The notes under the pieces were generated by a model. The model worked only from the letters and a program-made list of their open reading frames with translations, ran no database searches and was not told the DNA's origin. A stretch of 64,000 bases of DNA from an uncultured archaeon. GTDB taxonomy: Archaea > Asgardarchaeota > Thorarchaeia > Thorarchaeales > Thorarchaeaceae. Within the stretch, counting starts at the first letter, position 1. Every line of letters starts with the position of its first letter. Of the stretch, positions 9,460 through 21,887 are shown one piece after another. A program made the translations under genes and the position numbers. The stretch covers positions 32,001-96,000 of the forward strand of contig CAZLEV010000008.1 in assembly GCA_964558645.1 (NCBI GenBank). Direction: 5' to 3'.

Positions 9460-10026
9460 CTATTCTCCAGTCCACTCAACCCTTCGGTTCTCTAGTACAC
9501 CAGCGTGGTATAGAATTCGTTCTACAACCGAGTCGACGAGTTGTTCGATAGTGGATGGTTTGTGCCAGAACGCTGGAGAGGCGGGAATAACTATGGCACC
9601 TGCCTCTGTCACTCTTCCCATGTTCCGTATATGGATAAGGTTGAGCGGGGTTTCTCTTGGCACAATGATGAGCGTACGTTTCTCCTTGAGTGTACAATCA
9701 GCTGCTCGAGATATGAGATTGTCCGCGTAACCGTGTGCAATCCCTGCCAGAGTCTTCATCGTACATGGAACTACCACCATCGCATCGAGATGATAGCTTC
9801 CACTGGCAGGCCCTGCCGTCAGGTCGTCTTCATCATATACCTTTGTAACCCTGTTTTTTAGGTCTTCGGCCGTGAGTCCCGTTTCGTGCTTCAGGGTTTC
9901 GGTACCCCATCTGCTCACGATAAGATGAACCTCATGTCCTAGCTCGACCAGCCTATCGATTGTTCTGACGCCATAGATGGCACCGCTTGCGCCTGTCAGG
10001 CAGACAAGAATCCTTTTCTTAGCCAT
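9460..10026 (-). CDS. ubiX: Flavin prenyltransferase UbiX
   Basis: TGASGAIYG, ASGS, PCTMKTLA, ISRAAD, PRETPL and PAFW motifs. Confidence 0.95.
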   Translation of the reverse strand: MAKKRILVCLTGASGAIYGVRTIDRLVELGHEVHLIVSRWGTETLKHETGLTAEDLKNRVTKVYDEDDLTAGPASGSYHLDAMVVVPCTMKTLAGIAHGYADNLISRAADCTLKEKRTLIIVPRETPLNLIHIRNMGRVTEAGAIVIPASPAFWHKPSTIEQLVDSVVERILYHAGVLENRRVEWTGE

Positions 10027-10147
10027 GTAATCTCACTCCGTTTCAGACGTTCATCTGGGTATGGTGAAGAGCCTGAGGCAGTAACCAACATCTTGCTCAA
10101 CTCGTCTATAAAGTTCATGATTGGTTACATTGCACGATCCAAGATAG

Positions 10148-11992
10148 TTAGATGAGCAGTACTGTGGCGGCCGACAGCAAGAATGTGAGTCCTGCAGCGC
10201 CCAATCCCACTCGCTTTGCTATACGGGCAGCCTCGACAATGTCTTGAGTAAGAATATCAAATGCTTTCTCCCCGAATACTCTCAACTCCTTCGCCTGGCC
10301 GAATGCCATCCCTACCTCTACAGGTCTCAGCTTTTCCCGTGCCTTCGTGGTGGCTGTAATGATTGAATCCAGGATTTCGTCAGGTTTGTGTCTCCCGATG
10401 GGTGGATAGCCGCTGCTTGACAGTGAGATTGCATTGACAACGTGGGTGTCCGTAGTCGTTAGTTCCACTTTCTCGAATCCCTGTTCCTTGATAATGCTGA
10501 TTGCTCTCTCTCTGTAACCCGGCTCCATATTGTTACCGTCGATGAACAACAGGACGGACTCTGTCTCTCCCACTCTCAACACTAGGGCCACTATTCCGCC
10601 AGGGCCCAGACCATCTTTGAGGTCTATGCCATCGGGCGTTACTCTGTATATCCCGGCGCTCACCTCATGATGTGGCCCGTTAAAAGTAGAGAATGCTGCG
10701 CTTGAAACTGCACCAACATATTCATCTGCCTCAGGGTCACCCCTCATGACCGAGACTGCCTCATCATCTATGCAGTTATGTGCGTCCACAATAGAGACCT
10801 GATTGATAGACTGGAGTCTGCTCCTCACCATTTCGGCCGCATCCATTCCCACACTTAGAGAGATATCATCGGTGAACTGTGGAGCGCTGGTGGTGATGCA
10901 CAGGGCGTTATCACCCACAAAGAGTGTCCAGACCTTGAACTTACCAAGATCTGTCCAGTGAGGCCCTGAAACCTTTCCGACTGTCTCAGCCTCTCTCACA
11001 AGTCTGTCAATCTCTGACAGGATGATTGGAATGTCTTCTTTCGTTGTGAGGTTCTGATGATGAGTGCAAGTTCCGTGCATCACAAAGGCAGGAACTCCAT
11101 GATGTTTGCGGATATGAGCAATGATCTCGCTTGGAAGGCCGCTACTGCCGATGTCCCTGAATGGGCCCGGATGTATGTATAAAACTACTCCAACAGCGAA
11201 CAACTTGCCCTCTGACTTCAGAACCATGACCTCCACAGGAACATCCTGTTTGGTGTGGATTTGGGTGAGCGTTCGTTCTAGCGGTTCAGGGTTGCCTATC
11301 AGATAGTCGTATCCGAAGGCTCTCAAGAGGGCCGGACCATCTATACCCAGGTCTCGTTCGAAGGGTCTACTGACAGATCTGAATATCCAATAGACCGAAG
11401 CAGACGCAACCCCGTACATAAGAAGCACTCCCGGAATCCAGAATGCCGGCAGAGATGGGAACGTGTCCGTATAACTCTGAAGAAACAAGGTGAGTGAGAA
11501 CCAGGTAAGTGGGAATACCAATGCCGCGGCTAGGTTGCGGAGTGCATGATGGTCACTCAGACCCGTGACAAGGAATGCGAACATCATGTATCCGAGCGTC
11601 ATGCCAAGAATCAACAATCGTACTGTGAAGTAGTCCATGCCAAGAATCGCATCTATAGACGCTCCGATGACACCGAAACCCAACCACAGTAGGGTGCCGA
11701 ACTGGGTTGCACCAAAGGTCCTGCGCGGATCGAGTGGTGACCCTTCCTTTCTCACAAGGAGATAGAGGATAGCTGAGCTTAGGAAGACGGTCACGCTGAA
11801 GATTGCTGTATTGTGAAAGAAAGAATCGATTAACGTACTACCTGGTACTACTTGGGCCCTGAAGAATGATATGAGAAGACTTGCCAGGACAATCATGCCC
11901 AGAATCCTCACGAGGATCCCCGGGAAGGTTGGAAGTTGCCATACTTTGGAGTAGAGTCCCACTGTTTCCTTGACCTTCGCCTTTTCGCCCAT
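10148..11992 (-). CDS. DUF2070 family membrane protein
   Basis: N-terminal TM helices; IHPGPF, HGTCTH, VDAHN, DGNNM and TTDTH motifs. Likely start is the ATG at 11992 (track 12091). Confidence 0.85.
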   Translation of the reverse strand: MGEKAKVKETVGLYSKVWQLPTFPGILVRILGMIVLASLLISFFRAQVVPGSTLIDSFFHNTAIFSVTVFLSSAILYLLVRKEGSPLDPRRTFGATQFGTLLWLGFGVIGASIDAILGMDYFTVRLLILGMTLGYMMFAFLVTGLSDHHALRNLAAALVFPLTWFSLTLFLQSYTDTFPSLPAFWIPGVLLMYGVASASVYWIFRSVSRPFERDLGIDGPALLRAFGYDYLIGNPEPLERTLTQIHTKQDVPVEVMVLKSEGKLFAVGVVLYIHPGPFRDIGSSGLPSEIIAHIRKHHGVPAFVMHGTCTHHQNLTTKEDIPIILSEIDRLVREAETVGKVSGPHWTDLGKFKVWTLFVGDNALCITTSAPQFTDDISLSVGMDAAEMVRSRLQSINQVSIVDAHNCIDDEAVSVMRGDPEADEYVGAVSSAAFSTFNGPHHEVSAGIYRVTPDGIDLKDGLGPGGIVALVLRVGETESVLLFIDGNNMEPGYRERAISIIKEQGFEKVELTTTDTHVVNAISLSSSGYPPIGRHKPDEILDSIITATTKAREKLRPVEVGMAFGQAKELRVFGEKAFDILTQDIVEAARIAKRVGLGAAGLTFLLSAATVLLI

Positions 11993-12141
11993 TTCTTCTA
12001 TCTCCGATTTCAGACTGCTCGACTCAGCCTGTCTTATAGAGATTCCCGTAATCCTGAAACTGGGCACCGCATCAGCAGCTTTATATCGCATTCGATAATG
12101 AACGCGTCAAGAATTATCGTATTCGATATTATCATGAATGG

Positions 12142-12669
12142 ATGGTTGCGATGTCGCCAGACTGTGAATGCCCTGAGGGAAGATTACCCCATGCTGTACC
12201 GCGGGGATTGCTCAGATTCGTGATTCTGAAGCTGTTGGAGTCACAAGAGCTGTCTGGTACAGGCATTGCGGACATCCTTGAGGAACGTAGTAAGGGTGCG
12301 TGGCGACCAAGCCCCGGCTCTACCTATCACTTGCTGTCGGACCTTCTAGAGCGGGGGCATATTGAGGAAGCCAGGACCGAGGGTCGAACCATCTTCTACC
12401 GCCTATCCAATGCGGGTTCAGATGCACTAGACAACCTGTATGACCAGAAGAAGACACTGGACAAGCGAGCTGCTGTTGGGCCTATGCTCTGGCTCTCGGT
12501 TCTTGATCCAGAAGACAGAGTTCAAGCGCAGCTCCATCACTTGGATGGAGTAACAGAACGGCTGGCAGATACGTTCTCGCACCTCGATGAGGACGAGAGG
12601 GCGGCGCACAGAGATGAACTCAGGACAATCTACAAACGTCTATCCAAGATTATCAAAGACACACAATAA
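12142..12669 (+). CDS. PadR family transcriptional regulator
   Basis: RGLLRFVILKLL...WRPSPGSTY wHTH motif; directly upstream of the ABC exporter genes. Confidence 0.9.
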   Translation: MVAMSPDCECPEGRLPHAVPRGLLRFVILKLLESQELSGTGIADILEERSKGAWRPSPGSTYHLLSDLLERGHIEEARTEGRTIFYRLSNAGSDALDNLYDQKKTLDKRAAVGPMLWLSVLDPEDRVQAQLHHLDGVTERLADTFSHLDEDERAAHRDELRTIYKRLSKIIKDTQ

Positions 12670-12684
12670 CCACGAGGTATCGCC

Positions 12685-14529
12685 ATGACAGAAGACAATA
12701 ATGAACGAAACTCCGCTTTCCGCTACATGCTTGGGGGACTGGCTCGAAATCCTGGAGTCATCATTGGAGCCCTGATTCTCACTGTTATCTCAGCATTCAT
12801 CATGGCTCTGCCAAATGTGCTTCTGGGACAGGCCGTCAACATTGTCACTACCGCAGGTTTCACCGCAGATTTCGTCAACCTTGTCATAGAGATTGCTCTT
12901 CTAGCACTCGTCTACATGGGCATGTACTTCGTGGTCGGATATGCTTGGGCCGTTGTGACCCTGAGATGGGAACGCGATGCACGACAGGACTTCTTTGAGG
13001 CTCTACAAGAGTTCAGCATGACCTTCCATGATGTCATTGATAGCAAGAGATTGCTCTCGGTTGCCATGCAGGATATCAACTGGGTACGCCTCTCACTGAA
13101 TCCTGCTCTCCGCAATCTGGCATATAGTATTGCATCTTTCGGAATAACGGCCCTGTTCTTGATGTCCTATGATCTAACACCGGGACTGGCAGGTCTCCTT
13201 AGCTTGGGCGGAGTTCCTATTCCAGTGTTTACGTTGATTATGGCTATTGGCTCACCACTATATCTGTGGTTTGCCTACCAGTATGCAAACGCCGTTGAGC
13301 CAGTTCGCCGAGCCCGGTCCGAACAGATGGAGAATCTCACTTCAGTGTCGCAGGGTGTATTCCGGGGCATAGAAGTAGTTCGGGCTTTTGGGAAGGAGGC
13401 GAGCGAGAAGGACAAGTTTCAGAGAGTTAGCAATGAATACAAGGAAATGGTGACTCAGGAGGGCAGACTGGCTGCGTTCTATATTCCCGCCTTGGTTCTC
13501 ATCGCAATGACGACCTTATCTTTCTTCTATGGAGGTTACGCAGTGCTGGTCGGTGCGTTGGATGTTGGTACACTCACGTCTGTTCTTGCTCTTCTGCTAT
13601 CTCTTCAGGGTTTCAATTTCATGTTACCTAGGATGTTGCTGATGCTGCGAGGTGGTTACGTGAATGCCCAGAGGATTGTCAAGATTCTCAACTGGGAGGA
13701 TCCAATGGAAGAACCCCAAGAAGAGGCAACTGGTTTGGATTGGGGAAACGATATCATCTTCGATGCTGTGAGTTTCAAGTACACCTCTGATAATGGGAAC
13801 AGTGACCACTATGCATTGAAGGATCTCAACATTACGATTCCCGGCGGTTCAAGAGTGGCTCTTATTGGTGGTCCTGGCGGCGGAAAGAGCACAGTACTCA
13901 AGCTCCTGCTTCGGTTATATGACCCTGACGAGGGTCGTGTTCTCGTCGATGGGGTTGACTTACGAAATGTTAAGACTTCCACAGTTCGTGACCATGTGGG
14001 GCTTGTTGAGCAGGACATCTTCCTTTTCCGGATGACCGTCAAGGAGAATATTGCTTTCGGCAATTCTGAGGCTTCCCAGGAAGTAGTTGTTGAGGCTGCG
14101 AAACGAGCGCAAGCTCATGAGTTCATTGAGCAGCTCCCCAAAGGATACGATTCAATGATTGGTGAACGAGGGATGACATTGAGCGGAGGACAGCGGCAGC
14201 GGTTAGCGATTGCACGGGCCATTATTCAGGATCCCCAGATTCTTCTCCTCGACGACTCTGTGAGTGCAGTAGATGCACAGACCGAGTACAAGCTTAGGCA
14301 AGCTCTGGATGAGGTCATGAGCGGTCGAACCAGCATTACCGTCACACAGCGCCTCAGAACCCTCTTGGAATCTGATCTAGTGATTATGCTTGATAAGGGA
14401 GAACTGGTTGCAGCCGGTCGCCACGAGGAGCTTCTGAGGGCATCAGAAGAATACCGTCTGATATTCGAAAAGCTACCCGGAGCTGAAGCACTTCTCAAAG
14501 GCGTTACCGTTCGCGGAGGTGCCTCATAA
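12685..14529 (+). CDS. ABC exporter half-transporter (TMD+NBD), degenerate subunit
   Basis: GGPGGGKS and LSGGQ; Walker B is LLLDDS and the switch is TQRL (E to D, H to Q). Confidence 0.93.
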   Translation: MTEDNNERNSAFRYMLGGLARNPGVIIGALILTVISAFIMALPNVLLGQAVNIVTTAGFTADFVNLVIEIALLALVYMGMYFVVGYAWAVVTLRWERDARQDFFEALQEFSMTFHDVIDSKRLLSVAMQDINWVRLSLNPALRNLAYSIASFGITALFLMSYDLTPGLAGLLSLGGVPIPVFTLIMAIGSPLYLWFAYQYANAVEPVRRARSEQMENLTSVSQGVFRGIEVVRAFGKEASEKDKFQRVSNEYKEMVTQEGRLAAFYIPALVLIAMTTLSFFYGGYAVLVGALDVGTLTSVLALLLSLQGFNFMLPRMLLMLRGGYVNAQRIVKILNWEDPMEEPQEEATGLDWGNDIIFDAVSFKYTSDNGNSDHYALKDLNITIPGGSRVALIGGPGGGKSTVLKLLLRLYDPDEGRVLVDGVDLRNVKTSTVRDHVGLVEQDIFLFRMTVKENIAFGNSEASQEVVVEAAKRAQAHEFIEQLPKGYDSMIGERGMTLSGGQRQRLAIARAIIQDPQILLLDDSVSAVDAQTEYKLRQALDEVMSGRTSITVTQRLRTLLESDLVIMLDKGELVAAGRHEELLRASEEYRLIFEKLPGAEALLKGVTVRGGAS

Positions 14530-16613
14530 TGTCTCACACAAGGGGTGGCCCGGGCAGATGGACTCGAGAGAAACGCAAACGAAGCCGTTCAGTCGGTCTT
14601 CTGCTCCGGCGAATGCTTGGATACTTGGGGGCCTTCAAGAAGATAGTTGCTATAGCCGCGGTGCTATCACTGATGGGAACCTTCTTTGCTGTCATTGATC
14701 CCTTGGTCTTGAGATGGGCGATAGACGAGGTCTTCAGTGCCACAACGACCATGAATGTCCTAATCTATTTGGTGATGCTCTATCTCGTACTCAAAGTTGT
14801 ATCCTGGATACTCAATAGCAGCAATACGTGGATACTTGCCAGTGCGCAAGCAGGACTAGTTCAAGAGGTGCAGTCCGATCTCTACGCCCATCTTGTCGAG
14901 GCAGACCTTTCCTATCACAAGTCTGAGGAGAGCGGAAACGTGACTTCCAGAGTCACATCCGATACGGATGCTCTTGGTATTGGCATCCAGGCAATCGTCG
15001 ATTTCAGTAGCCAGATCCTGTTGATTGGCGGGACCTTTGTTCTCCTGTGGACCACTTCTCCAACCATAGCATTGACTTCACTAGTTGTGATTCCGGGTGT
15101 TGTCTTCATCGCAGTTCTCTTCGGAACTGTAGGTCAGCGTATCATGCTCGCGTCGCGAAGAGCCTATGGTGCAGTATCCGGAAGGATTGCTGAAGACTTG
15201 AGTGGAGTTCAAATTGCAAAAGCATTCAACCGTGAAGATGAGTTGGCAGAAGAGCTGCAGGAACTTAACGAAGAGGCATATCATCATGGCTTCCGCTTCA
15301 TGATATTGATGAGCGCGATGCAGCCTCTTATGCGGTCAATGGGTCAGATTGGCATAGCTGCTGTCCTCTTTGTGGGTGGATCTATGGTCACCGGTACCAC
15401 ACCGCTTCTCACCGTGGGTGAGCTCTTTCTGGGTGTAATGCTTGTCAATCGGTTCATGTGGCCGATTCTCGGTCTTGCGCTGATGGCAACAGAGGTCCAG
15501 GCATCATTGGCCGCCATGGATCGAATATCTGATGTCCTAGAGTCAAAACGAGCTATTACGGACGAGCCGGATGCCATTCCCCTGAAACCTGAAAGCGATG
15601 GTATCCGATTCGAGGATGTGACCTTCTCCTATGTTGAAGGAGAAGAAGTGTTGAAAAACGTCACATTTGAAATCGAAGCGGGCAAGACTGTCGCTGTGGT
15701 GGGGCATACCGGGGCCGGTAAGACCACAGTTGCAGCACTGATCAATAGGTTCTATGACCCGGAAGCGGGTCGGATACTCATCGGTGACCAAGACCTTCGG
15801 AAAGTGACTCTTGAATCTCTGCATCAGAATGTCTCTCTCATTCCACAGATACCGTATCTCTTCGATGGCACAATAATGGAGAACATCCGTTACGGAAACC
15901 CCGATGCAACAGATGAGCAGATCAAGGAGATATGCAGACTTATCGGAGCAAGTGAGTTCATTGAAGTACTTGCTGATGGTTACAACACACTCGTGATGGA
16001 GAACGGCAAGAACCTAAGTGCTGGTCAAAGGCAGATGATCACCATCGCTCGAACTATGCTTGCAGACCCGAAGATTCTCATTCTGGATGAAGCCACCAGT
16101 CGCCTTGATGCCTACAGTGAGGCTCTGGTGCAGGAAGCTCAAGAGATACTCTTCTCAGACAGGACAACAATGGTCATAGCCCATCGCCTCACCACAATCG
16201 CCCACGCATCCAGGATTCTAGTCTTTGAGGACGGTGAGATTGTGGAGCGGGGAACACACAAGGAGCTGCTCGACCAAGACGGAGTATTTCGTAGACTCTA
16301 TCAAAGCTACTATGCCCATCAGGGTATTGACGAGCTGACAGAGGAGCTTGCCAGGGTCGCTGAGAAAGAGGTCTCCCGATACGGTAGCAAAGAAGGCTCT
16401 CTCATAGCGCATGGAGGTATGAACCCTCAAAAAGGAGGTATGGCTAGCATGTTGAGTGGAACTGGACCCGACGGTGAACGGATTGTCGAGATGAGCGAAA
16501 TGCTGCCCCCAGATTTGATTGAAGAGATTCATGACAGCGATGGTAAGATATCTCCTGACCTCAAAGAGAGAATCAGGAAGGCTCTGGAAGACACTCCAAA
16601 GGAGGCCGAATAA
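14529..16613 (+). CDS. ABC exporter half-transporter (TMD+NBD), consensus subunit
   Basis: GHTGAGKT, LSAGQ, ILDEAT and IAHRL motifs; partner of the preceding gene in a heterodimeric exporter. Confidence 0.93.
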   Translation: MSHTRGGPGRWTREKRKRSRSVGLLLRRMLGYLGAFKKIVAIAAVLSLMGTFFAVIDPLVLRWAIDEVFSATTTMNVLIYLVMLYLVLKVVSWILNSSNTWILASAQAGLVQEVQSDLYAHLVEADLSYHKSEESGNVTSRVTSDTDALGIGIQAIVDFSSQILLIGGTFVLLWTTSPTIALTSLVVIPGVVFIAVLFGTVGQRIMLASRRAYGAVSGRIAEDLSGVQIAKAFNREDELAEELQELNEEAYHHGFRFMILMSAMQPLMRSMGQIGIAAVLFVGGSMVTGTTPLLTVGELFLGVMLVNRFMWPILGLALMATEVQASLAAMDRISDVLESKRAITDEPDAIPLKPESDGIRFEDVTFSYVEGEEVLKNVTFEIEAGKTVAVVGHTGAGKTTVAALINRFYDPEAGRILIGDQDLRKVTLESLHQNVSLIPQIPYLFDGTIMENIRYGNPDATDEQIKEICRLIGASEFIEVLADGYNTLVMENGKNLSAGQRQMITIARTMLADPKILILDEATSRLDAYSEALVQEAQEILFSDRTTMVIAHRLTTIAHASRILVFEDGEIVERGTHKELLDQDGVFRRLYQSYYAHQGIDELTEELARVAEKEVSRYGSKEGSLIAHGGMNPQKGGMASMLSGTGPDGERIVEMSEMLPPDLIEEIHDSDGKISPDLKERIRKALEDTPKEAE

Positions 16614-17390
16614 CTAGTTCGCAACCTCGAGTCTTCCGGCTATACTAATAGAGCCACCCATGAGGATGTATACCTCTGTTGCTATGAGCCTTGAGAGAAT
16701 TGATGTAGGGTCGCTAGAGAGGACACACCACGAGAAATACTGGACGATGAACAGAAGCGACGCAATGAAGGAGAAACCAAACGGAAGAACCAACAATCCA
16801 CTTCTGAATGTCCACAACAGAACAGCAAGGATTCCTACTATCATCAGGATACCAACGCCTACGGGAATACACACTGCAATGTCTATGAGAGTTCTACCCG
16901 GGGAGACGATTGCACCGAATATCTGAGTCAGGAGAACTCCTGAAACTGAAACAAGTGTTATCAGGAGCAGTATGTCTCTCGGTTTCGCTGCAGCTATCGT
17001 GTTCCGGCAGACAATGAGATACCTAGTGGTGCCTATTCCCCATAGAAGAACACCCGGGATGAGGAGGAGGGATATTGTGAAATAGAACTCCTGGCCCCTT
17101 GGCATGCTTGATATGATTGTCGTTCCAATCTCAGCAAGGGTCAGGACGATAAGCCCCAAGGCGAGAAGAAGATTCATCGAGTTGAATCTATCTTCGAGTC
17201 CATAATCGTTTCGTGCAAATCTGATGAGGCCCAGAACTCCCGGTACCAGAGCTGCAATCGGAGCAGAGATGTTCAGAAACATAATTGGGCTACCGACAGA
17301 TTCCGACGAATCCAAGGCAAGGACGATGATGAGCATCGATGCCGCGAGCAGGACGAACACAGACACAACATAGACCATCTCCTTTTTCAA
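16614..17390 (-). CDS. Polytopic membrane protein (about 7-8 TM), unknown function
   Basis: Successive hydrophobic helices. Confidence 0.75.
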   Translation of the reverse strand: MKKEMVYVVSVFVLLAASMLIIVLALDSSESVGSPIMFLNISAPIAALVPGVLGLIRFARNDYGLEDRFNSMNLLLALGLIVLTLAEIGTTIISSMPRGQEFYFTISLLLIPGVLLWGIGTTRYLIVCRNTIAAAKPRDILLLITLVSVSGVLLTQIFGAIVSPGRTLIDIAVCIPVGVGILMIVGILAVLLWTFRSGLLVLPFGFSFIASLLFIVQYFSWCVLSSDPTSILSRLIATEVYILMGGSISIAGRLEVAN

Positions 17391-17469: not shown

Positions 17470-18672
17470 CTAAGACGGTTGAGCTGTGAGTCTTTCCCAC
17501 TCCACCTCATAATTCAAGGTGGGAAATTGTCTCTCTACATCATCTCTGGTGTGTTCTAGTATCTGATTGATTGGATTCACTCCAGTGTAATCACTTATCC
17601 TCTTTGTGATGAACTGGAGCAATGCTCTGAAGCCCTCACTCAGATATCCGGGAGATAGTTTGTCTCGCATAGTTGCTGATGTCAGAGAGCTCCTTATCTC
17701 CACATCTACTCCCTCTTCGAGGTCTACCAAGTGCAACCAAGAATACTGCCCTGTCAGTTTTCCCCTTGAATCATAGAAGACTTTTTTGGCAATGCCGAAG
17801 CCAAGAATCCTTGCGCAATGTTTCAAGACGGATTGGAGAACCGATGAGTACAGGACCAGCCTGGCCTGTGCGGGAGATACTCTTTCTATTGCCTGTTGTT
17901 CAGCCAATTGAGCAATCTCATCGAGGAAGACTCTCATATCTGCTGTCTTGACACGTTCGGCGGCAATAGAGAGTGGGGTTTCTCCGTCGAGCTGAGAGAC
18001 GGCTTTCTCTGTTTCCCACGAGACTGATGTCGGCCCTCTCTCAGACTTCATCAGGGATGTCGCCTGGTAGATGTCGTCAGGCCTTACCGGCGTCGACAGA
18101 GAGATGGTCTTCTCCCAGAGTGCCTCAGCCACCAGATCCAGTGCAACGTCCAGTGGTATCTCAAGAAACTCTGCCGCCTCTTTCACGCTTATCCTGTCGG
18201 GAAGGAGTTTGAGGAAGGCTGTGACTTCGGGGTCGCTGGTAATCATGTCCCAGTTCAGTTTTGGTCGGATGATTGAGTCGGGGTCTATCTGGTCCCGAAT
18301 CAACTCCTCAATTACGTGCTTCTCAAATCGAGTATACACAGCCAAGTCCATGTCAACCCACCTGAGCAGGCCAAACATATCCTCGAATCTCCTGACAAGT
18401 TTCCGGAGTTTCTCCCTAAGGTCTTCGGAATCACGTCGGACCGAGAGTGCCCCCAGTGCCCATTCACCGAACTCAACAACTATCTTGTAGTCGGTTCCTT
18501 CGAAGGCTCTGGCCTTAGATGTGATAGAGTTTGTGGCCTCATCGAAGAACGAGGTCATGGCTACAATGAACGACGATATGAGGTGTGGATCAAAGATGCC
18601 TTGGGCGAAATCTTTGTGGTACATACAGACGCCCGTTTCGCGTTTCATGATGTACAGGCTCCTTGCATCCAT
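17470..18672 (-). CDS. Longin-domain protein with tandem winged-helix domains (NPRL2/NPRL3-like architecture)
   Basis: The N-terminal LYIMKRETGVCMYHKDF...DPHLISSFIVAMTSFFDE...YKIVVEFG segment fits a longin fold. It is followed by two wHTH-like segments (LLPDRISVKEAAEFLEIPLDVALDLV and SQLDGETPLSIAAERV). Confidence 0.7.
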   Translation of the reverse strand: MDARSLYIMKRETGVCMYHKDFAQGIFDPHLISSFIVAMTSFFDEATNSITSKARAFEGTDYKIVVEFGEWALGALSVRRDSEDLREKLRKLVRRFEDMFGLLRWVDMDLAVYTRFEKHVIEELIRDQIDPDSIIRPKLNWDMITSDPEVTAFLKLLPDRISVKEAAEFLEIPLDVALDLVAEALWEKTISLSTPVRPDDIYQATSLMKSERGPTSVSWETEKAVSQLDGETPLSIAAERVKTADMRVFLDEIAQLAEQQAIERVSPAQARLVLYSSVLQSVLKHCARILGFGIAKKVFYDSRGKLTGQYSWLHLVDLEEGVDVEIRSSLTSATMRDKLSPGYLSEGFRALLQFITKRISDYTGVNPINQILEHTRDDVERQFPTLNYEVEWERLTAQPS

Positions 18673-18834
18673 GTAACTCTCTCCGCTGGATTTGTTTCGT
18701 TATGCGGTCCCGTTCGAAACAACCATGTCCAGCTGTTTCAACTTTGCTGCTTTTGAGTATTCTACTGACGTATGTCAAGAAGAGGATATGTCAAGTTCCC
18801 AAGTGCTATAAGCAGAACTCCAGTTCTGCCCGGT

Positions 18835-19440
18835 ATGTCCGAAGAGCAGAACATCAATTGCCCAATATGCGGAACGGGCAGGCTCACCGTCAGCTCGATG
18901 TTGTATAGTGTTCCTTTCTTCAACGAGCTTGCTATGTTCACGATGAGATGCAACACTTGCAATTTCACACACAATGATGTCTTCTCTGCAGAGGACAGAC
19001 CACCAAGTAGATGGACTCTTCATGTGGGCAATGAGCGGCTTCTTCGGGTTCGCGTTGTACGTTCTAGTTCAGGAACCATCAGGATGCCGGAGTTTGGAAT
19101 CGTCATAGAACCTGGCCCCGGTGCTGATTCTTTCATCTCCAATGTTGAAGGAGTACTCTCCCGGACACGCCCTGTGGTCGAGACCGCTGTTCGATTCGCG
19201 GATAAACCTGAGGAGAAGGCCAGAGGGAGAGAGGTGATCGCTATGATTGACGAGGCGCTCGCGGGCAATCTCGAGTTCACTCTTGTCATCGAGGATCCAG
19301 TGGGCATTAGCGGCATTCTTCCGGAGGATATGTCGCTGGTTAGTTTTGACGAATTGACAGAAGAAGAGGCATCGAAACTCAGAGGGGCTCCTGGTTGGCT
19401 GGATACGGTTCGGGATGAGTATTCGGAGCGTAACGGTTAA
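18835..19440 (+). CDS. ZPR1 zinc-finger domain protein (archaeal single-module type)
   Basis: CPICG...VPFF...CNTCNF, RVVRSSSGTI, IEPGP, SNVEG and IEDPVG motifs. Likely ATG at 18835 (track 18772). Confidence 0.92.
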   Translation: MSEEQNINCPICGTGRLTVSSMLYSVPFFNELAMFTMRCNTCNFTHNDVFSAEDRPPSRWTLHVGNERLLRVRVVRSSSGTIRMPEFGIVIEPGPGADSFISNVEGVLSRTRPVVETAVRFADKPEEKARGREVIAMIDEALAGNLEFTLVIEDPVGISGILPEDMSLVSFDELTEEEASKLRGAPGWLDTVRDEYSERNG

Positions 19441-19757: not shown

Positions 19758-21887
19758 ATGTCTGAACTGATATTTCTATTAATAGGCATAGTTTCCGGCC
19801 TTCTTGCAATTTTCACTGCCCTATATATGTTCCAAAAAGTCAAGACGTTCGACGAAGGGAACCAAGAAATGAAAGAGGTCAGTGGATTGATTGAGAAAGG
19901 TGCATATGCTTTTCTCAAGATTCAGTATCGTATTCTCTCGGCCTTTACGGCAGTACTAGCAATTCTGCTAGCTCTGGCCTTTGGCCAGCTTGGAATCCCG
20001 ATTGCTGTTTCATATGTGCTTGGCTCAATTGCAAGCATGATTGCAGGTTATGTCGGCATTATTATCGCAACAATTGCTAACAGACGAACAGCTGCAGCTG
20101 CTGCTTCAGGTGGACTGAATCCAGCCTTCAATGTAGCATTCAAGGCAGGCTCTGTTATGGGACTGATGATTGCGGGCATTGCCCTGGCAGGTCTAGGATT
20201 CCTCTATATACTATGGAACTCGCTGCTCGCACTCACACCCGTTCTCATCTGGGAGGTTGTGACCGGTTTCTCATTTGGAGCGAGTACAGTGGCACTCTTC
20301 GCCAAAGCTGGTGGCGGAATCTACACCAAGACTGCAGATCTAGCTGCCGATATAGTGGGAAAGATTGAGCACAATATTCCCGAAGATGATGCTAGAAATC
20401 CCGCCTCGATAGCTGACGCAGTGGGTGATAATGTAGGTGATGTTGCAGGGACTGGTGCAGACATCTATGACAGCAACGTCGCTGCGATACTGGCGGCAGC
20501 CATCATTGGCGCTGCAATTGACGCTACTCTCGCTCCTGCCGTTTCCTTTGGGCTTCTACCTCTGATGATTGCAGGTCTAGGCACTTTTGCATCGGTCATC
20601 GGAGTGTTTCTGGTTCAGCCGAGAGAGGATGAAGACCCTGGCCCCGTCCTGAATAGAGGGACCTACATAACTACCATTCTGTTTGTCATCTTTACGGTAG
20701 TAGTCACTTGGCTCATGGGTATCGATCTGACGATTGCGGCATCCGCCACACTTGGTCTCATCGCAGGTGTCATAATTGGTGTGACCTCCGATGTCTTCAC
20801 AAGTGACAGAGGGATAGGCGGGTTCAAGCCTGTTCCTACCATGGTTGAGTCTTCGACAAAGAGTGCAGCAAATCTCATTCTCTCAGGATACTCCTACGGT
20901 CTGCTGAGTGCTGTCCCGTCAGTAATCGTGATTGCTGGAGCCCTTGTGGGATCCTTCGTTCTTGGCACTTCTGCAACAACCCTCGGACTTGGCACTTGGG
21001 ACGGTGGAATATACGCCGTGGCAATTGCTGCAGTGGGTCTGCTGGCGACAAACGGAATGATCATGAGTTCCGATGCCTATGGTCCCATTGTAGATAACGC
21101 AAGAGGGGTCATTGAGCATGCACATGTGGGCGAACAGGCGCTCATTGACTGCGACAAGCTGGACGCAAGCGGGAATACGGCAAAGGCAATAACCAAAGGC
21201 TTCGCGATTGCCGCATCAGCGATATCAGTACTGGCTCTCTTCTCGGCATTCATTGGCTCAGCAAGGGAGTTACTTGGGTATGAGCTCATTGTAAATTTGG
21301 CAAACCCATTCATTCTAGCCGGTGGTTTCATCGGAGCATTGGTACCTGTTACATTCTCGGCAATCTTGATTCTTGGTGTTGGAAAGAACTCTGAGCGGAT
21401 GATAGCTGAGATACGAAGACAGTTTGCAGACGACCCTGGTATCCTAGAGGGCACATCCCTGCCCGATTATGACAAATGCATCCAGATAGCAACTTCTGGA
21501 GCAATACGAGAGCTTCTTCCAGGTACAGTCATTGCCATAGTAGTGACCATCATCACAGGTTCAATGCTGGGAATAGAAGCAGTGGCAGGGTACTTGGGCG
21601 GTGCAGTCATGGTTGGCATGATAATGGCTTTGCTGATGTCTAACGCGGGTGGGGCCTGGGACAATGCCAAGAAGATAATAGAGTCTCCCGAATCTCCTGT
21701 CCCAGCTGATGATCCGCGCTATGCGGAAGTCCACGCAAACGCTGTGTTGGGTGATATGGTCGGGGATCCGTTCAAAGACACTGCGGGGCCGTCTATCAAT
21801 ACTCTGCTGGTAGTTATCTCATTGACGGCAACACTGTTCTTGCCAGTCATGGTACAGATACATCTTGCGCTACTGGCTCTGTTCTAA
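19758..21887 (+). CDS. hppA: Membrane-integral ion-translocating pyrophosphatase (probably K+-independent H+-PPase)
   Basis: GGGIYTKTADLAAD, IPEDDARNP, DNVGD, DAYGPIVDNA, GNTAKAITKG, GGAWDNAKK and GDPFKDTAGP motifs. Confidence 0.95.
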   Translation: MSELIFLLIGIVSGLLAIFTALYMFQKVKTFDEGNQEMKEVSGLIEKGAYAFLKIQYRILSAFTAVLAILLALAFGQLGIPIAVSYVLGSIASMIAGYVGIIIATIANRRTAAAAASGGLNPAFNVAFKAGSVMGLMIAGIALAGLGFLYILWNSLLALTPVLIWEVVTGFSFGASTVALFAKAGGGIYTKTADLAADIVGKIEHNIPEDDARNPASIADAVGDNVGDVAGTGADIYDSNVAAILAAAIIGAAIDATLAPAVSFGLLPLMIAGLGTFASVIGVFLVQPREDEDPGPVLNRGTYITTILFVIFTVVVTWLMGIDLTIAASATLGLIAGVIIGVTSDVFTSDRGIGGFKPVPTMVESSTKSAANLILSGYSYGLLSAVPSVIVIAGALVGSFVLGTSATTLGLGTWDGGIYAVAIAAVGLLATNGMIMSSDAYGPIVDNARGVIEHAHVGEQALIDCDKLDASGNTAKAITKGFAIAASAISVLALFSAFIGSARELLGYELIVNLANPFILAGGFIGALVPVTFSAILILGVGKNSERMIAEIRRQFADDPGILEGTSLPDYDKCIQIATSGAIRELLPGTVIAIVVTIITGSMLGIEAVAGYLGGAVMVGMIMALLMSNAGGAWDNAKKIIESPESPVPADDPRYAEVHANAVLGDMVGDPFKDTAGPSINTLLVVISLTATLFLPVMVQIHLALLALF

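What the first reader, a model, noticed from the sequence alone, without database searches (positions are those of the whole stretch)
17470..18672. Longin plus tandem winged-helix protein resembling GATOR1 subunits NPRL2/NPRL3
Seen: an N-terminal longin-like domain of about 120 aa, then two repeats of the pattern short strand - helix - (L/I)DG-type turn - HTH - strand (FLKLLPDRISVKEAAEFLEIPLDVALDLVAEALWEKTISL...DDIYQAT and AVSQLDGETPLSIAAERV...LAEQQAIERV), then an unassigned helical C-terminal domain. Established: NPRL2/3 are longin proteins with C-terminal winged helices that act as the Rag GTPase GAP upstream of TORC1, and Asgard archaea encode longin/roadblock proteins and Rag-like GTPases. 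Inference: this may be an archaeal relative of that architecture. I do not see an obvious counterpart of the NPRL2 arginine finger.
Basis: partly seen in the sequence, partly recalled or inferred. Interest (0 to 1): 0.72.

Follow-up and report, generated by a model that had tools for sequence, protein, structure and literature searches.

The report
Thorarchaeal NPRL2/NPRL3-like longin–winged-helix protein
This gene of an Asgard (Thor) archaeon encodes a 400-residue protein whose predicted structure follows, end to end, the layout of the eukaryotic nutrient-signalling proteins NPRL2/NPRL3. A 2020/21 survey had already noted such a family in Thorarchaeota. It lacks their catalytic motifs and is almost always followed by an unstudied membrane-protein gene.

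Summary
Window 17470-18672 (-) is a real, conserved gene (P0001, 400 aa). Its predicted layout is:
- a longin domain (residues 1-128)
- two winged helices (about 134-204 and 219-265)
- a helical C-terminal domain (267-395)

The best PDB matches are NPRL2/NPRL3 subunits of GATOR1/SEACIT, both for the whole model and for the C-terminal 272 residues alone. Generic wHTH proteins match only one winged helix at a time.

HMMER-level searches find no relationship to Pfam NPR2, NPR3 or HTH_NPRL3. The GP motif is absent. No arginine sits where I place the NPRL2 finger. No Iml1/DEPDC5 or canonical Rag GTPase was found in the genome.

The idea is not new. Liu et al. (bioRxiv 2020) reported a family with NPRL2 domain organisation "in most Thor MAGs".

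What I add:
- The genome carries a second full-length paralog (28% identity). Both types occur in at least 45 of 77 sampled genomes of this family.
- The gene is followed on the same strand by a ~250-aa, 7-8 TM protein in 59 of the 63 genomes where that membrane protein was found.

The function is inferred: a membrane-linked longin scaffold without an arginine finger, probably regulating a small GTPase.

The parts
17470..18672 (-). Gene for the A-type NPRL2/NPRL3-like protein (P0001, 400 aa). It is cytosolic and acidic (net charge -15).
   Evidence: ORF and translation. 205 homolog clusters. AF2 model with pLDDT 86.8. The 12 best Foldseek PDB hits are GATOR1/SEACIT NPRL2/3 chains, E 5.7e-7 to 2.4e-4. 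Net charge.
18289..18672 (-). Longin domain, residues 1-128 (beta-beta-alpha-beta-beta-beta-alpha-alpha). It is the most conserved part of the protein. The beta1-beta2 loop reads K-R-[ED]-T-G-V with G14 invariant. The beta4-beta5 loop reads E67-F-G69-E-W71.
   Evidence: Z 13.2 to Sec22b and VAMP7 longin domains; Z 12-12.7 to MglB and LAMTOR. 20 of the 24 columns that are at least 90% conserved lie here. Loop motifs.
18061..18273 (-). Winged helix 1, residues 134-204. The recognition-position helix (174-186) is acidic.
   Evidence: Secondary structure. Single-domain matches to MetAP2-insert, TFE, MarR and Z-alpha type wHTHs at Z 6-7.7. Net charge -6 for the domain and -3 for the helix.
17878..18018 (-). 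Winged helix 2, residues 219-265, with the conserved 'LDG' turn (G230).
   Evidence: Best single-domain match is 3k9t, the circularly permuted wHTH that founded Pfam HTH_47 (Z 9.0, 65 residues aligned, rmsd 2.1). RRE/PqqD-like domains also match.
17488..17874 (-). Helical C-terminal domain, residues 267-395. It has six helices (267-290, 292-306, 311-315, 328-335, 341-363, 365-382) and a small beta-hairpin at 316-326.
   Evidence: Models. Part of it is included in the alignment to NPRL2 residues 169-375 (Z 7.7-8.2, 138-156 residues aligned). It is the least conserved domain: 15% identity to B-type paralogs.
16614..17390 (-). Downstream gene on the same strand (P0002). It encodes a 250-258-aa protein with 7-8 predicted TM segments, of no known family. 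The start codon is uncertain: TTG 17390, ATG 17378 or GTG 17366. It is the conserved partner gene of the A-type protein.
   Evidence: Hydrophobic segments. No Pfam or NCBIfam hit. Adjacent and co-directional with the A-type gene in 59 of 63 family-f1 genomes where it was found (coordinates compared by hand). The pair also occurs in a distant family, in G048. The 79-nt spacer has no oligo-T run.
18772..19440 (+). Divergently transcribed ZPR1 zinc-finger homolog (P0003). It is a conserved neighbour, probably by synteny only.
   Evidence: TIGR00310 at E 5.6e-47 and Pfam jr-ZPR1/Zn_ribbon_ZPR1. Adjacent and divergent in nearly all sampled f1 genomes. It was not duplicated with the A-M pair in G242.

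Best explanation
P0001 is a soluble Thorarchaeota protein with four parts: a longin domain, two protein-binding winged helices, and a helical C-terminal domain. They occur in the same order, and the protein is about the same size, as the eukaryotic GATOR1 subunits NPRL2/NPRL3. It is most likely a distant relative of those proteins.

Shown here:
- the gene is real
- the fold and its colinearity with NPRL2/3
- a second full-length paralog (B-type, P0236) elsewhere in the genome
- an almost invariant arrangement with a 7-8 TM membrane-protein gene immediately downstream on the same strand
- strongest conservation in the longin domain, including the beta1-beta2 and beta4-beta5 loops

Inferred mechanism:
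- The protein works by protein-protein contacts, not by binding DNA.
- Its longin domain serves as a platform for a partner, most probably one of the genome's many small GTPases. The partner would bind the loop face that forms the catalytic pocket in NPRL2, FLCN and SMCR8.
- The winged helices and C-terminal domain would mediate assembly, for example dimerisation or docking to the co-encoded membrane protein. That would place the complex at the membrane.
- It has neither the GP motif nor an arginine at the finger position. It would therefore act either as the non-catalytic NPRL3-like subunit, or as a finger-less regulator in the way of MglB or the longin GEFs.
For: Fold and colinearity:
- Full model: the 12 best Foldseek PDB hits are all NPRL2/NPRL3/SEACIT chains, E 5.7e-7 to 2.4e-4, over 340-471 columns.
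- C-terminal model alone: the same 12 lead the list. VIA-wide ranks them 2 and 3 of 48,161 chains. The residue ranges are colinear. The ESM Atlas returns eukaryotic NPR2/NPR3 clusters.
- Longin domain: Z 13.2.

Literature:
- NPRL2/3 are described as a longin domain plus two or more C-terminal wHTH domains (PMC5681675).
- Their longin domains and their C-terminal domains both dimerise (PMC8534245).
- A family with NPRL2 organisation occurs 'in most Thor MAGs', and NPRL2-like longins are fused to signalling domains (bioRxiv 10.1101/2020.10.19.343400).
- I saw the same longin type fused to KaiC-like ATPase and V4R domains.

Paralog:
- E 3e-41, 28% identity over 373 residues.
- Both types occur in at least 45 of 77 f1 genomes.
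- The A and B types each fall on one side of a branch, SH-aLRT 99 and 94.

Membrane partner:
- 59 of 63 genomes have it adjacent.
- The pair is duplicated as a unit in G242.
- The pair is kept in the distant G048 lineage.
- The membrane family is otherwise confined to f1.

Against DNA binding: the winged helices and their recognition helices are acidic across the family.

Conservation hot spot: G14, Y18, E67, G69 and W71 lie in the loops that, by topology, sit on the same end of the sheet.
Against: - No sequence-profile link to NPR2, NPR3 or HTH_NPRL3 exists for this protein, its 50 aligned relatives or the genome. PDB profile searches give NPRL3 only at E about 2.
- Structural scores are moderate: Z about 8 and TM 0.26-0.51. 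Global superposition is poor (rmsd 12-15 A for the full model), so the domain orientations differ.
- FAM91A1, bacterial DUF4388/PatA_N clusters and a Thermoplasmatota cluster match the C-terminal part about as well.
- No Iml1/DEPDC5 was found.
- No Rag-type GTPase with a C-terminal roadblock domain was found. Only G-domain matches appeared, none of them on this contig.
- No GTPase gene is linked to the locus.
- ZPR1 is as constantly adjacent as the membrane gene. Part of the synteny may therefore simply reflect slow rearrangement within one family.
- No binding has been shown for any partner.
Confidence: 0.55

Rival explanations
1. It is a regulatory or adaptor subunit of the co-encoded membrane protein, with no GTPase involved. 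The longin domain would act as a small-molecule or partner sensor. It would control, or report on, a transporter- or sensor-like 7-8 TM protein, possibly feeding into two-component signalling.
For: - The A-to-membrane-gene pair is the best conserved context feature.
- The membrane protein keeps polar and charged residues in or near its TM segments: R60, D67, N73, E87, R166, E239.
- Its nearest named Atlas clusters are membrane sensor modules (MASE3, MASE4, HisKA_7TM), but only at a score of 0.81-0.82.
- This longin type is fused to KaiC-like ATPase and V4R domains in relatives.
- The B paralog lies among PAS histidine kinases and response regulators in this genome and one other.
- Liu et al. 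propose that such longins plug into two-component systems.
Against: - The Atlas leads are below the level the tool calls reliable.
- B-paralog neighbourhoods are not conserved.
- Characterised longin and roadblock platforms mostly act on small GTPases (PMC8534245), and this genome encodes at least 11 small GTPases.
Confidence: 0.2
2. The likeness to NPRL2/3 is convergent or generic. The protein would be one of many Asgard longin-plus-wHTH combinations produced by domain shuffling, and not specifically related to GATOR1 subunits.
For: - No HMMER-level similarity.
- Z about 8 is within the range the tool calls common.
- The longin domain is no closer to NPRL2/3 than to SNARE, TRAPP or MglB domains.
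- Each winged helix alone matches cpwHTH/RRE domains as well or better.
- Many Asgard proteins combine this longin type with varying numbers of wHTH domains.
- Liu et al. stress extensive domain shuffling in Asgard archaea.
Against: - The only PDB matches that span both winged helices, and for NPRL2 also part of the C-terminal domain, are NPRL2/NPRL3/SEACIT and, more weakly, FAM91A1.
- They lead two independent searches.
- The ESM Atlas independently returns eukaryotic NPR2/NPR3 clusters.
- A distant homolog, P0183, has a near-threshold Pfam HTH_NPRL3 match (E 4.5e-5, 23.7 bits against a cut-off of 27.2).
- Order, size and the paralog-pair pattern all parallel NPRL2/NPRL3.
Confidence: 0.2
3. 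It is a one-component transcription regulator: a longin sensor domain fused to DNA-binding winged helices.
For: - There are two wHTH domains.
- Single-domain matches include MarR, ArsR and TFE type DNA binders at Z about 6.
- Weak TrmB and HTH_20 Pfam hits occur in shorter relatives.
Against: - Both winged helices are net acidic: -6 and -5 in P0001, and family means of -4.1 and -2.5.
- The recognition-position helices carry net negative or zero charge.
- The closest single-domain matches are protein- or peptide-binding wHTHs: the MetAP2 insert, CA_C2195 and RRE/PqqD.
- Conservation is concentrated in the longin domain, not in the HTH helices.
Confidence: 0.05

Closest known systems
Human NPRL2 / yeast Npr2 (catalytic subunit of GATOR1/SEACIT; Pfam NPR2 PF06218)
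   Same: - N-terminal longin domain.
- The post-longin region is colinear: P0001 129-396 aligns with NPRL2 169-375 at Z 7.7-8.2 over 138-156 residues.
- Top Foldseek matches for both the whole protein and the C-terminal part.
- Similar overall length.
- A paralogous partner exists in the same genome.
   Different: - No Pfam NPR2 match.
- No GP motif: G14 is followed by V.
- No arginine in the beta4-beta5 loop, which is where I place Arg78. That placement is from my own recall. The held literature says only 'a loop of the longin domain', next to the GP motif.
- No Iml1/DEPDC5.
- No canonical Rag GTPase.
- It is coupled to a membrane-protein gene.
Human NPRL3 / yeast Npr3 (non-catalytic GATOR1 subunit; Pfam NPR3 PF03666, HTH_NPRL3 PF24064)
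   Same: - A longin domain followed by tandem winged helices. P0001 129-267 aligns with NPRL3 255-408 at Z 8.5 over 132 residues.
- Like NPRL3, it lacks the GP motif and the arginine finger (PMC12290439).
- A distant relative, P0183, nearly reaches the HTH_NPRL3 threshold.
   Different: - NPRL3 is larger and carries insertions.
- There is no HMM-level match for P0001 itself.
- NPRL3's partners (NPRL2, DEPDC5, GATOR2) have no detected counterparts here, other than the B paralog.
Asgard 'NPRL2-like' family of Liu et al. (bioRxiv 10.1101/2020.10.19.343400; asCOG category 'NPRL2-like longin domain', also used in PMC9834061)
   Same: [quoted passage not shown]
- P0001's family is in 74 of 76 sampled genomes of its Thor family and has that organisation.
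- Fusions of this longin type to signalling domains are seen in both that study and here.
   Different: - I could not confirm that the published family is this one. The supplementary tables are not held.
- The held text does not mention the A/B paralog pair, the missing GP and arginine motifs, or the downstream membrane gene.
Asgard FLCN/SMCR8-type longins with GP motif and arginine finger (PMC12290439)
   Same: They are Asgard longin proteins proposed as relatives of the eukaryotic longin GAPs.
   Different: - Those proteins keep both the GP motif and the arginine finger, and are highlighted in Heimdallarchaeia.
- P0001's family has 'T-G-V' and 'E-F-G-E-W' at the corresponding loops.
- P0001 also carries winged helices rather than a DENN module.
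MglB / LAMTOR roadblock platforms
   Same: - A closely similar alpha/beta core: Z 12-12.7 over about 100 residues.
- They regulate small GTPases as dimers. MglB does so without supplying an arginine finger (my own knowledge).
   Different: - They have roadblock topology with an N-terminal helix, whereas P0001 starts with beta1 and ends with two helices (longin).
- They have no winged helices and no C-terminal domain.
Circularly permuted wHTH / RRE-type peptide-binding winged helices (Pfam HTH_47, CA_C2195 = PDB 3k9t; PqqD, NisB, MccB)
   Same: - WH2 matches 3k9t at Z 9.0 and rmsd 2.1 over 65 residues. RRE domains match at Z 5-6.
- Shorter Asgard relatives carry Pfam HTH_47 hits.
   Different: These are single domains in unrelated enzymes. 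They explain the kind of winged helix present, not the architecture of the whole protein.

Membership tests
GATOR1 NPRL2/NPRL3 (Pfam NPR2 PF06218, NPR3 PF03666) | N-terminal longin domain | tested here: met
   The model folds as beta-beta-alpha-beta-beta-beta-alpha-alpha over residues 3-128. Z 13.2 to Sec22b and VAMP7 longin domains.
GATOR1 NPRL2/NPRL3 (Pfam NPR2 PF06218, NPR3 PF03666) | Post-longin region with two or more winged helices and a C-terminal domain, colinear with NPRL2/3 | tested here: met
   Foldseek places NPRL2/3 chains at the top for the C-terminal model (E 3e-3 to 6.5e-2). VIA gives Z 7.5-8.5 over 132-156 residues with colinear ranges. The ESM Atlas returns NPR2/NPR3 clusters at TM 0.43-0.51. 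The scores are moderate.
GATOR1 NPRL2/NPRL3 (Pfam NPR2 PF06218, NPR3 PF03666) | Match to the family HMMs above the gathering threshold | tested here: not met
   P0001 has no Pfam hit at E up to 10. None of the 51 aligned relatives hits NPR2, NPR3 or HTH_NPRL3 at E up to 1. Six-frame genome searches with PF06218 and PF24064 find nothing above the cut-off. PF03666 was not searched against the genome.
GATOR1 NPRL2/NPRL3 (Pfam NPR2 PF06218, NPR3 PF03666) | Catalytic arginine finger on a longin loop (NPRL2 Arg78) | tested here: inconclusive
   The beta4-beta5 loop is an invariant E-F-G-E-W with no arginine in either paralog type. Mapping Arg78 to that loop rests on my recall and on secondary-structure order, not on a residue-level superposition. 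Conserved basic residues R11 and R55 lie, by topology, at the same end of the sheet and cannot be excluded.
GATOR1 NPRL2/NPRL3 (Pfam NPR2 PF06218, NPR3 PF03666) | GP motif just before or at the start of longin strand beta2 (a feature of the catalytic subunits, per PMC12290439) | tested here: not met
   The A-type reads T-G14-V/I in all 18 A-type rows, with no proline. The B-type reads T-G-[LMV]-A-P, with the proline three residues after the glycine. NPRL3 also lacks the GP motif.
GATOR1 NPRL2/NPRL3 (Pfam NPR2 PF06218, NPR3 PF03666) | A paralogous partner subunit that forms a heterodimer | tested here: inconclusive
   A full-length paralog exists (P0236, 28% identity). It co-occurs with the A-type in at least 45 of 77 genomes. 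Whether the two bind each other was not established.
GATOR1 NPRL2/NPRL3 (Pfam NPR2 PF06218, NPR3 PF03666) | Third subunit Iml1/DEPDC5 | tested here: not met
   A PF12257 search of the genome (92.8% complete) gives only a 12-bit match at E 0.125, no better than the weak matches the tool reports in 4 of its 14 control genomes.
GATOR1 NPRL2/NPRL3 (Pfam NPR2 PF06218, NPR3 PF03666) | Rag/Gtr GTPase substrate (G domain plus C-terminal roadblock domain) | tested here: inconclusive
   PF04670 matches 11 loci, but mainly over the N-terminal G-domain part of the model (the longest match ends at position 151 of 232). Most are ORFs of 175-233 aa. The same model also matches in 5 of 14 control genomes. Divergent Rag-like proteins were not excluded.
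Asgard NPRL2-like family of Liu et al. 2020/21 | Longin plus NPRL2-type C-terminal domain, present in most Thor genomes | tested here: met
   Architecture. Present in 74 of 76 genomes of family f1.
Asgard NPRL2-like family of Liu et al. 2020/21 | Listed in that study's asCOG tables | not testable with these tools
   No supplementary files are held for the preprint.
DNA-binding wHTH transcription regulators (MarR/ArsR/TrmB type) | Basic recognition helix or wing suited to DNA contact | tested here: not met
   The recognition-position helices have net charge -3 (WH1) and -2 (WH2). The domains are net -6 and -5. The family means are also negative.
Roadblock/LC7 (MglB, LAMTOR) | alpha-beta-beta-alpha-beta-beta-beta topology with an N-terminal helix | tested here: not met
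   The model starts with strand 3-10 and ends with helices 83-103 and 111-128, which is longin order. The core still superposes on MglB and LAMTOR at Z 12.

The most novel reading that the evidence does not exclude
The A-type protein and its co-encoded 7-8 TM partner form a membrane-anchored longin module in an archaeon, possibly together with the B paralog as an NPRL2/NPRL3-like heterodimer. This module would regulate an Asgard small GTPase without a canonical arginine finger. It might use the invariant E67/G69/W71 loop, or R11/R55. The membrane protein would act as a transporter-like sensor. That would make it a prokaryotic forerunner of the lysosome-anchored nutrient-sensing longin complexes (GATOR1, FLCN-FNIP, C9orf72-SMCR8).
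Probability: 0.12. Interest if true: 0.8.

Novelty: already known. Interest (0 to 1): 0.42.

Why it matters
NPRL2/NPRL3, FLCN and SMCR8 are the longin-domain GAPs that link nutrient status to TORC1 and lysosome function. When this machinery arose is an open question in eukaryogenesis. This locus confirms, with independent structure predictions, the earlier sequence-based claim that Thorarchaeota carry proteins with the NPRL2/3 layout.

It also adds three concrete points:
- Two conserved paralogs exist, so a heterodimer can be tested.
- The catalytic motifs of the eukaryotic GAP subunits are missing.
- A membrane-protein gene travels with the A-type gene.

Together these define a small set of genes that could be expressed and assayed to learn what an archaeal NPRL-like protein does. 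The family is still annotated 'hypothetical protein' and has no Pfam model.

Tried and rejected
- Sequence searches that gave no named relative: Pfam and NCBIfam on P0001; phmmer and profile searches of PDB sequences. The only 'significant' PDB hit was a designed repeat protein, 8vd6, which matches the HTH by composition. NPRL3 appeared at E about 2, which is not significant.
- Pfam scan of all 51 aligned relatives: no NPR2, NPR3 or HTH_NPRL3 hit.
- Complex prediction of P0001 with its paralog P0236, using alignments A3 and A4: no answer, score 0.01 against a mark of 0.32. This is neither support for nor evidence against binding.
- RNA evidence for co-transcription: no RNA holder is listed among public runs. 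The DNA is held by marine sediment metagenomes.
- Conserved neighbours of the B paralog: none. Contexts differ between loci.
- Membrane protein P0002: no Pfam or NCBIfam hit, no PDB-sequence relative, and only 'hypothetical' Thorarchaeota homologs. The Atlas feature search gave only sub-threshold sensor-domain leads.
- Supplementary tables of Liu et al. are not held. Shen et al. 2019 (PMC6393612), on the position of Arg78, is not held.
- The full-length ESM Atlas shape search returned only Asgard hypothetical clusters.
- The careful phylogeny did not finish in the time allowed, so only the quick tree is reported.
- Shadow ORFs on the + strand over the gene have no support and were set aside.
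Full report
**1. The gene is real**

Window 17470-18672 on the minus strand is an uninterrupted ORF of 400 codons with an ATG start. It has 205 homologous 90%-identity clusters of 380-412 residues. All are annotated 'hypothetical protein', and almost all are labelled Candidatus Thorarchaeota. A six-frame survey of 301 genomes of the phylum found a match in 74 of the 76 sampled genomes of the window's own GTDB family (f1). In most of these the ortholog scored E < 1e-120. Public marine-sediment metagenomes hold the same DNA. Neither Pfam nor NCBIfam recognises the protein.

**2. Anatomy**

An AlphaFold2 model was built from a 51-sequence alignment (A1). It has mean pLDDT 86.8 and pTM 0.70. The C-terminal 272 residues modelled alone reach pLDDT 91.9 and pTM 0.82.

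- Residues 3-128 fold as beta-beta-alpha-beta-beta-beta-alpha-alpha, which is the longin order. VIA-align gives Z 13.2 to the Sec22b and VAMP7 longin domains (114-119 residues, rmsd 2.6-2.7). MglB, LAMTOR, TRAPP and Fuzzy domains score Z 12-13.
- Two winged helices follow, at about 134-204 and 219-265.
- A helical C-terminal domain follows at 267-395.

**3. What the post-longin region resembles**

- With the whole model, the 12 best Foldseek matches in the PDB are all GATOR1/SEACIT subunits: human NPRL2, human NPRL3 and a yeast SEACIT chain. E-values run from 5.7e-7 to 2.4e-4 over 340-471 alignment columns. TM is only about 0.26 and rmsd 12-15 A, so the relative domain orientations differ.
- The longin domain could have driven that result, so I searched with residues 129-400 alone. 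The same 12 chains again lead the list (E 3.3e-3 to 6.5e-2; 155-175 columns at rmsd about 5 A for NPRL2-type chains). They are followed by the FAM91A1 N-terminal domain and then by noise. The first generic winged helix is at rank 43 with E 2.6.
- A search that does not depend on Foldseek (48,161 chain representatives) ranks the yeast SEACIT chain 8adl_S second (Z 8.2, 137 residues) and human NPRL2 (8fw5_B) third (Z 8.0, 155 residues). MarR, ArsR, TFE, Z-alpha and ESCRT-II winged helices cover only one domain of about 50-60 residues, at Z about 6.
- A second look gives the residue ranges. P0001 129-267 aligns with NPRL3 255-408 (Z 8.5). P0001 129-396 aligns with NPRL2 169-375 (Z 7.7-8.2).
- In the ESM Atlas, five of the ten nearest cluster types are eukaryotic clusters carrying Pfam NPR2 or NPR3/HTH_NPRL3 (TM 0.43-0.51).
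- The literature describes NPRL2/3 as a longin domain plus two or more C-terminal wHTH domains (PMC5681675). Their longin domains heterodimerise and their C-terminal domains also contact each other (PMC8534245).

**4. Limits of the resemblance**

- Z of about 8 is at the level the tool calls common.
- Each winged helix alone matches protein- or peptide-binding winged helices as well or better. Examples are 3k9t, the founder of Pfam HTH_47 (Z 9.0), MetAP2-type inserts, and RRE/PqqD domains.
- Bacterial DUF4388/PatA_N clusters and a Thermoplasmatota cluster match the C-terminal part about as well as the NPR2 clusters do.
- The longin domain alone shows no preference for NPRL2/3.
- At HMMER level there is no link. 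There are no Pfam hits in P0001 or in any of its 50 aligned relatives. Six-frame genome searches with PF06218 and PF24064 find nothing above the cut-off. NPRL3 appears only at E about 2 in a PDB profile search.
- The single sequence-level hint is a near-threshold HTH_NPRL3 hit (E 4.5e-5, 23.7 bits against 27.2) in the distant homolog P0183.

**5. Catalytic motifs**

PMC12290439 defines a GP motif just before or at the start of longin strand beta2. It is specific to the catalytic longins NPRL2, FLCN, SMCR8 and C9orf72, and it lies next to the arginine finger.

- In the A-type family this loop reads K-R-[ED]-T-G-V. G14 is invariant and there is no proline.
- In the B-type the loop reads T-G-[LMV]-A-P.
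- I take the beta4-beta5 loop to be the position of NPRL2 Arg78. This rests on my recall and on strand order, and was not verified by superposition. In both types that loop is a nearly invariant E-x-G-[ED]-W, with no arginine.
- Conserved basic residues R11 (R/K) and R55 (invariant R in the A-type, mostly K in the B-type) should lie at the same end of the sheet by topology. A non-homologous finger therefore cannot be excluded.
- Twenty of the 24 columns that are at least 90% conserved across both types lie in the longin domain.

**6. Partners in the genome**

- The genome (3.63 Mb, 92.8% complete) holds one further full-length paralog, P0236 (430 aa, 28% identity, E 3e-41). It lies on another contig.
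- From the rows printed, at least 45 of the 77 f1 genomes (the 76 sampled plus the window's own) carry both an A-type ortholog and one to three B-type paralogs.
- In a quick maximum-likelihood tree, the A and B types each fall on one side of a branch (SH-aLRT 99 and 94). A third, long-branched lineage (G048 and P0169) stands apart.
- No Iml1/DEPDC5 was found.
- The Gtr1/RagA model matches only the G domains of about 11 small GTPases, none of them on the window's contig.

**7. Gene neighbourhood**

- The gene is followed 79 nt downstream, on the same strand, by a gene for a 250-258-aa protein with 7-8 hydrophobic segments and no known family (P0002). The spacer has no oligo-T run.
- I compared the coordinates by hand. 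The membrane gene lies directly downstream of the A-type gene, co-directional and 80-180 bp away, in 59 of the 63 f1 genomes where it was found.
- The four exceptions are G134 (9 kb apart, with another ORF in between), one fragmented assembly, and two genomes in which no A-type gene was found.
- G242 carries two copies of the pair.
- In a different family, G048, a 24%-identical full-length homolog is followed 104 bp downstream by a 270-aa multi-TM protein. That protein shares the 'ED[RK]F...ALG...AEI' motif.
- The membrane family was otherwise not found outside f1.
- Caution is needed, because the divergently transcribed ZPR1 homolog upstream is just as constantly adjacent within f1. Block synteny therefore explains part of the pattern. 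The outer flanks do vary: H+-PPase or a glycosidase on one side, and PadR with two ABC transporter genes, or DUF2070, on the other.
- B-type paralogs have no conserved neighbours.

**8. Interpretation**

The winged helices are acidic, including their recognition-position helices. Their closest single-domain relatives bind proteins or peptides. A transcription-factor role is therefore unlikely.

The best-supported reading is a cytosolic, NPRL2/3-like longin scaffold. It would use its conserved loop face to engage a partner, most plausibly a small GTPase. It would use its winged helices and C-terminal domain for assembly and for docking to the co-encoded membrane protein. It lacks GP and the finger arginine, so it resembles the non-catalytic NPRL3, or finger-less regulators such as MglB and the longin GEFs, more than it resembles NPRL2. 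Everything beyond fold, conservation and gene order is inference.

**9. Novelty**

Liu et al. [quoted passage not shown] They also wrote that NPRL2-like longins are fused to signalling domains. The asCOG label 'NPRL2-like longin domain' is used elsewhere too.

I could not check the accession lists. The texts I could search do not mention the A/B paralog pair, the absence of the catalytic motifs, or the link to a membrane gene. These modest additions make the family experimentally approachable.

Noticed in passing
window 16614-17390 (-), and across genomes: A ~250-aa, 7-8 TM protein of no known family lies directly downstream of the A-type gene, on the same strand, in 59 of the 63 family-f1 genomes where it was found. 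The pair is duplicated as a unit in G242. It also occurs in a distant lineage (G048:C5:31-2188 = L031). Conserved polar residues are R60, D67, N73, E87, R166 and E239.
   Followed up: yes
window 18772-19440 (+): A ZPR1 zinc-finger homolog (TIGR00310, E 5.6e-47) is divergently transcribed from the target and adjacent to it throughout family f1. It was not duplicated with the A-M pair in G242, so this is probably synteny rather than a functional link.
   Followed up: partly
L002:1405-2697 (+) = G000:C1, outside the window; context in L010: This is the full-length B-type paralog P0236 (430 aa). It is flanked by PAS histidine kinases, a response regulator and a hybrid kinase. A similar two-component neighbour occurs next to P0133 (L028), but not next to P0128 or P0137.
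   Followed up: partly
L006 (G000:C8:24127-27402, just upstream of the window): An ORF of about 1,879 aa contains the same longin type (matching P0001 residues 11-100). In a separate search, a 1,878-aa protein (P0184) matched the WH1-WH2 stretch of P0001 (residues 186-259) in nine places. I did not check whether the two are the same protein. Either way it looks like a giant multi-winged-helix relative.
   Followed up: no
L003/L004 (G000:C17:55224-56740): Two adjacent ORFs of about 290 aa each match the longin plus first winged helix of P0001 (E 3e-5 and 2e-4). They belong to a shorter longin-wHTH class. The nearest Atlas cluster of that size (291 aa) has Pfam HTH_47 on only 11% of its members.
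   Followed up: no
residues 129-400 of P0001 (window 17470-18288): In the ESM Atlas shape search, bacterial DUF4388/PatA_N (PATAN) clusters, some also carrying PadR, and a Thermoplasmatota cluster match the post-longin region about as well as the eukaryotic NPR2/NPR3 clusters do (TM 0.45-0.52). From my own recollection, PATAN domains have been linked to MglA/MglB. A deeper relationship was not examined.
   Followed up: no
homologs P0185, P0191, P0196, P0220: The same longin type occurs N-terminal to KaiC-like ATPase domains in P0185, P0191 and P0196. In P0220 a V4R domain lies at the C-terminus. This agrees with the report by Liu et al. of NPRL2-like longins fused to signalling modules.
   Followed up: partly
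G155:C4:172308-173502: In this genome the A-type ortholog appears as two pieces, with one in-frame TGA in one piece and one in-frame TAG in the other. It may be a broken gene or an assembly error.
   Followed up: no
window 9460-16613 and 19758-21887: The surrounding genes are housekeeping or transport genes with no evident link to the target. They are a flavoprotein, DUF2070, PadR with two ABC exporter genes, and an H+-pyrophosphatase. Further along the window lie SMC, AAA ATPases and a 2-oxoacid:ferredoxin oxidoreductase.
   Followed up: partly
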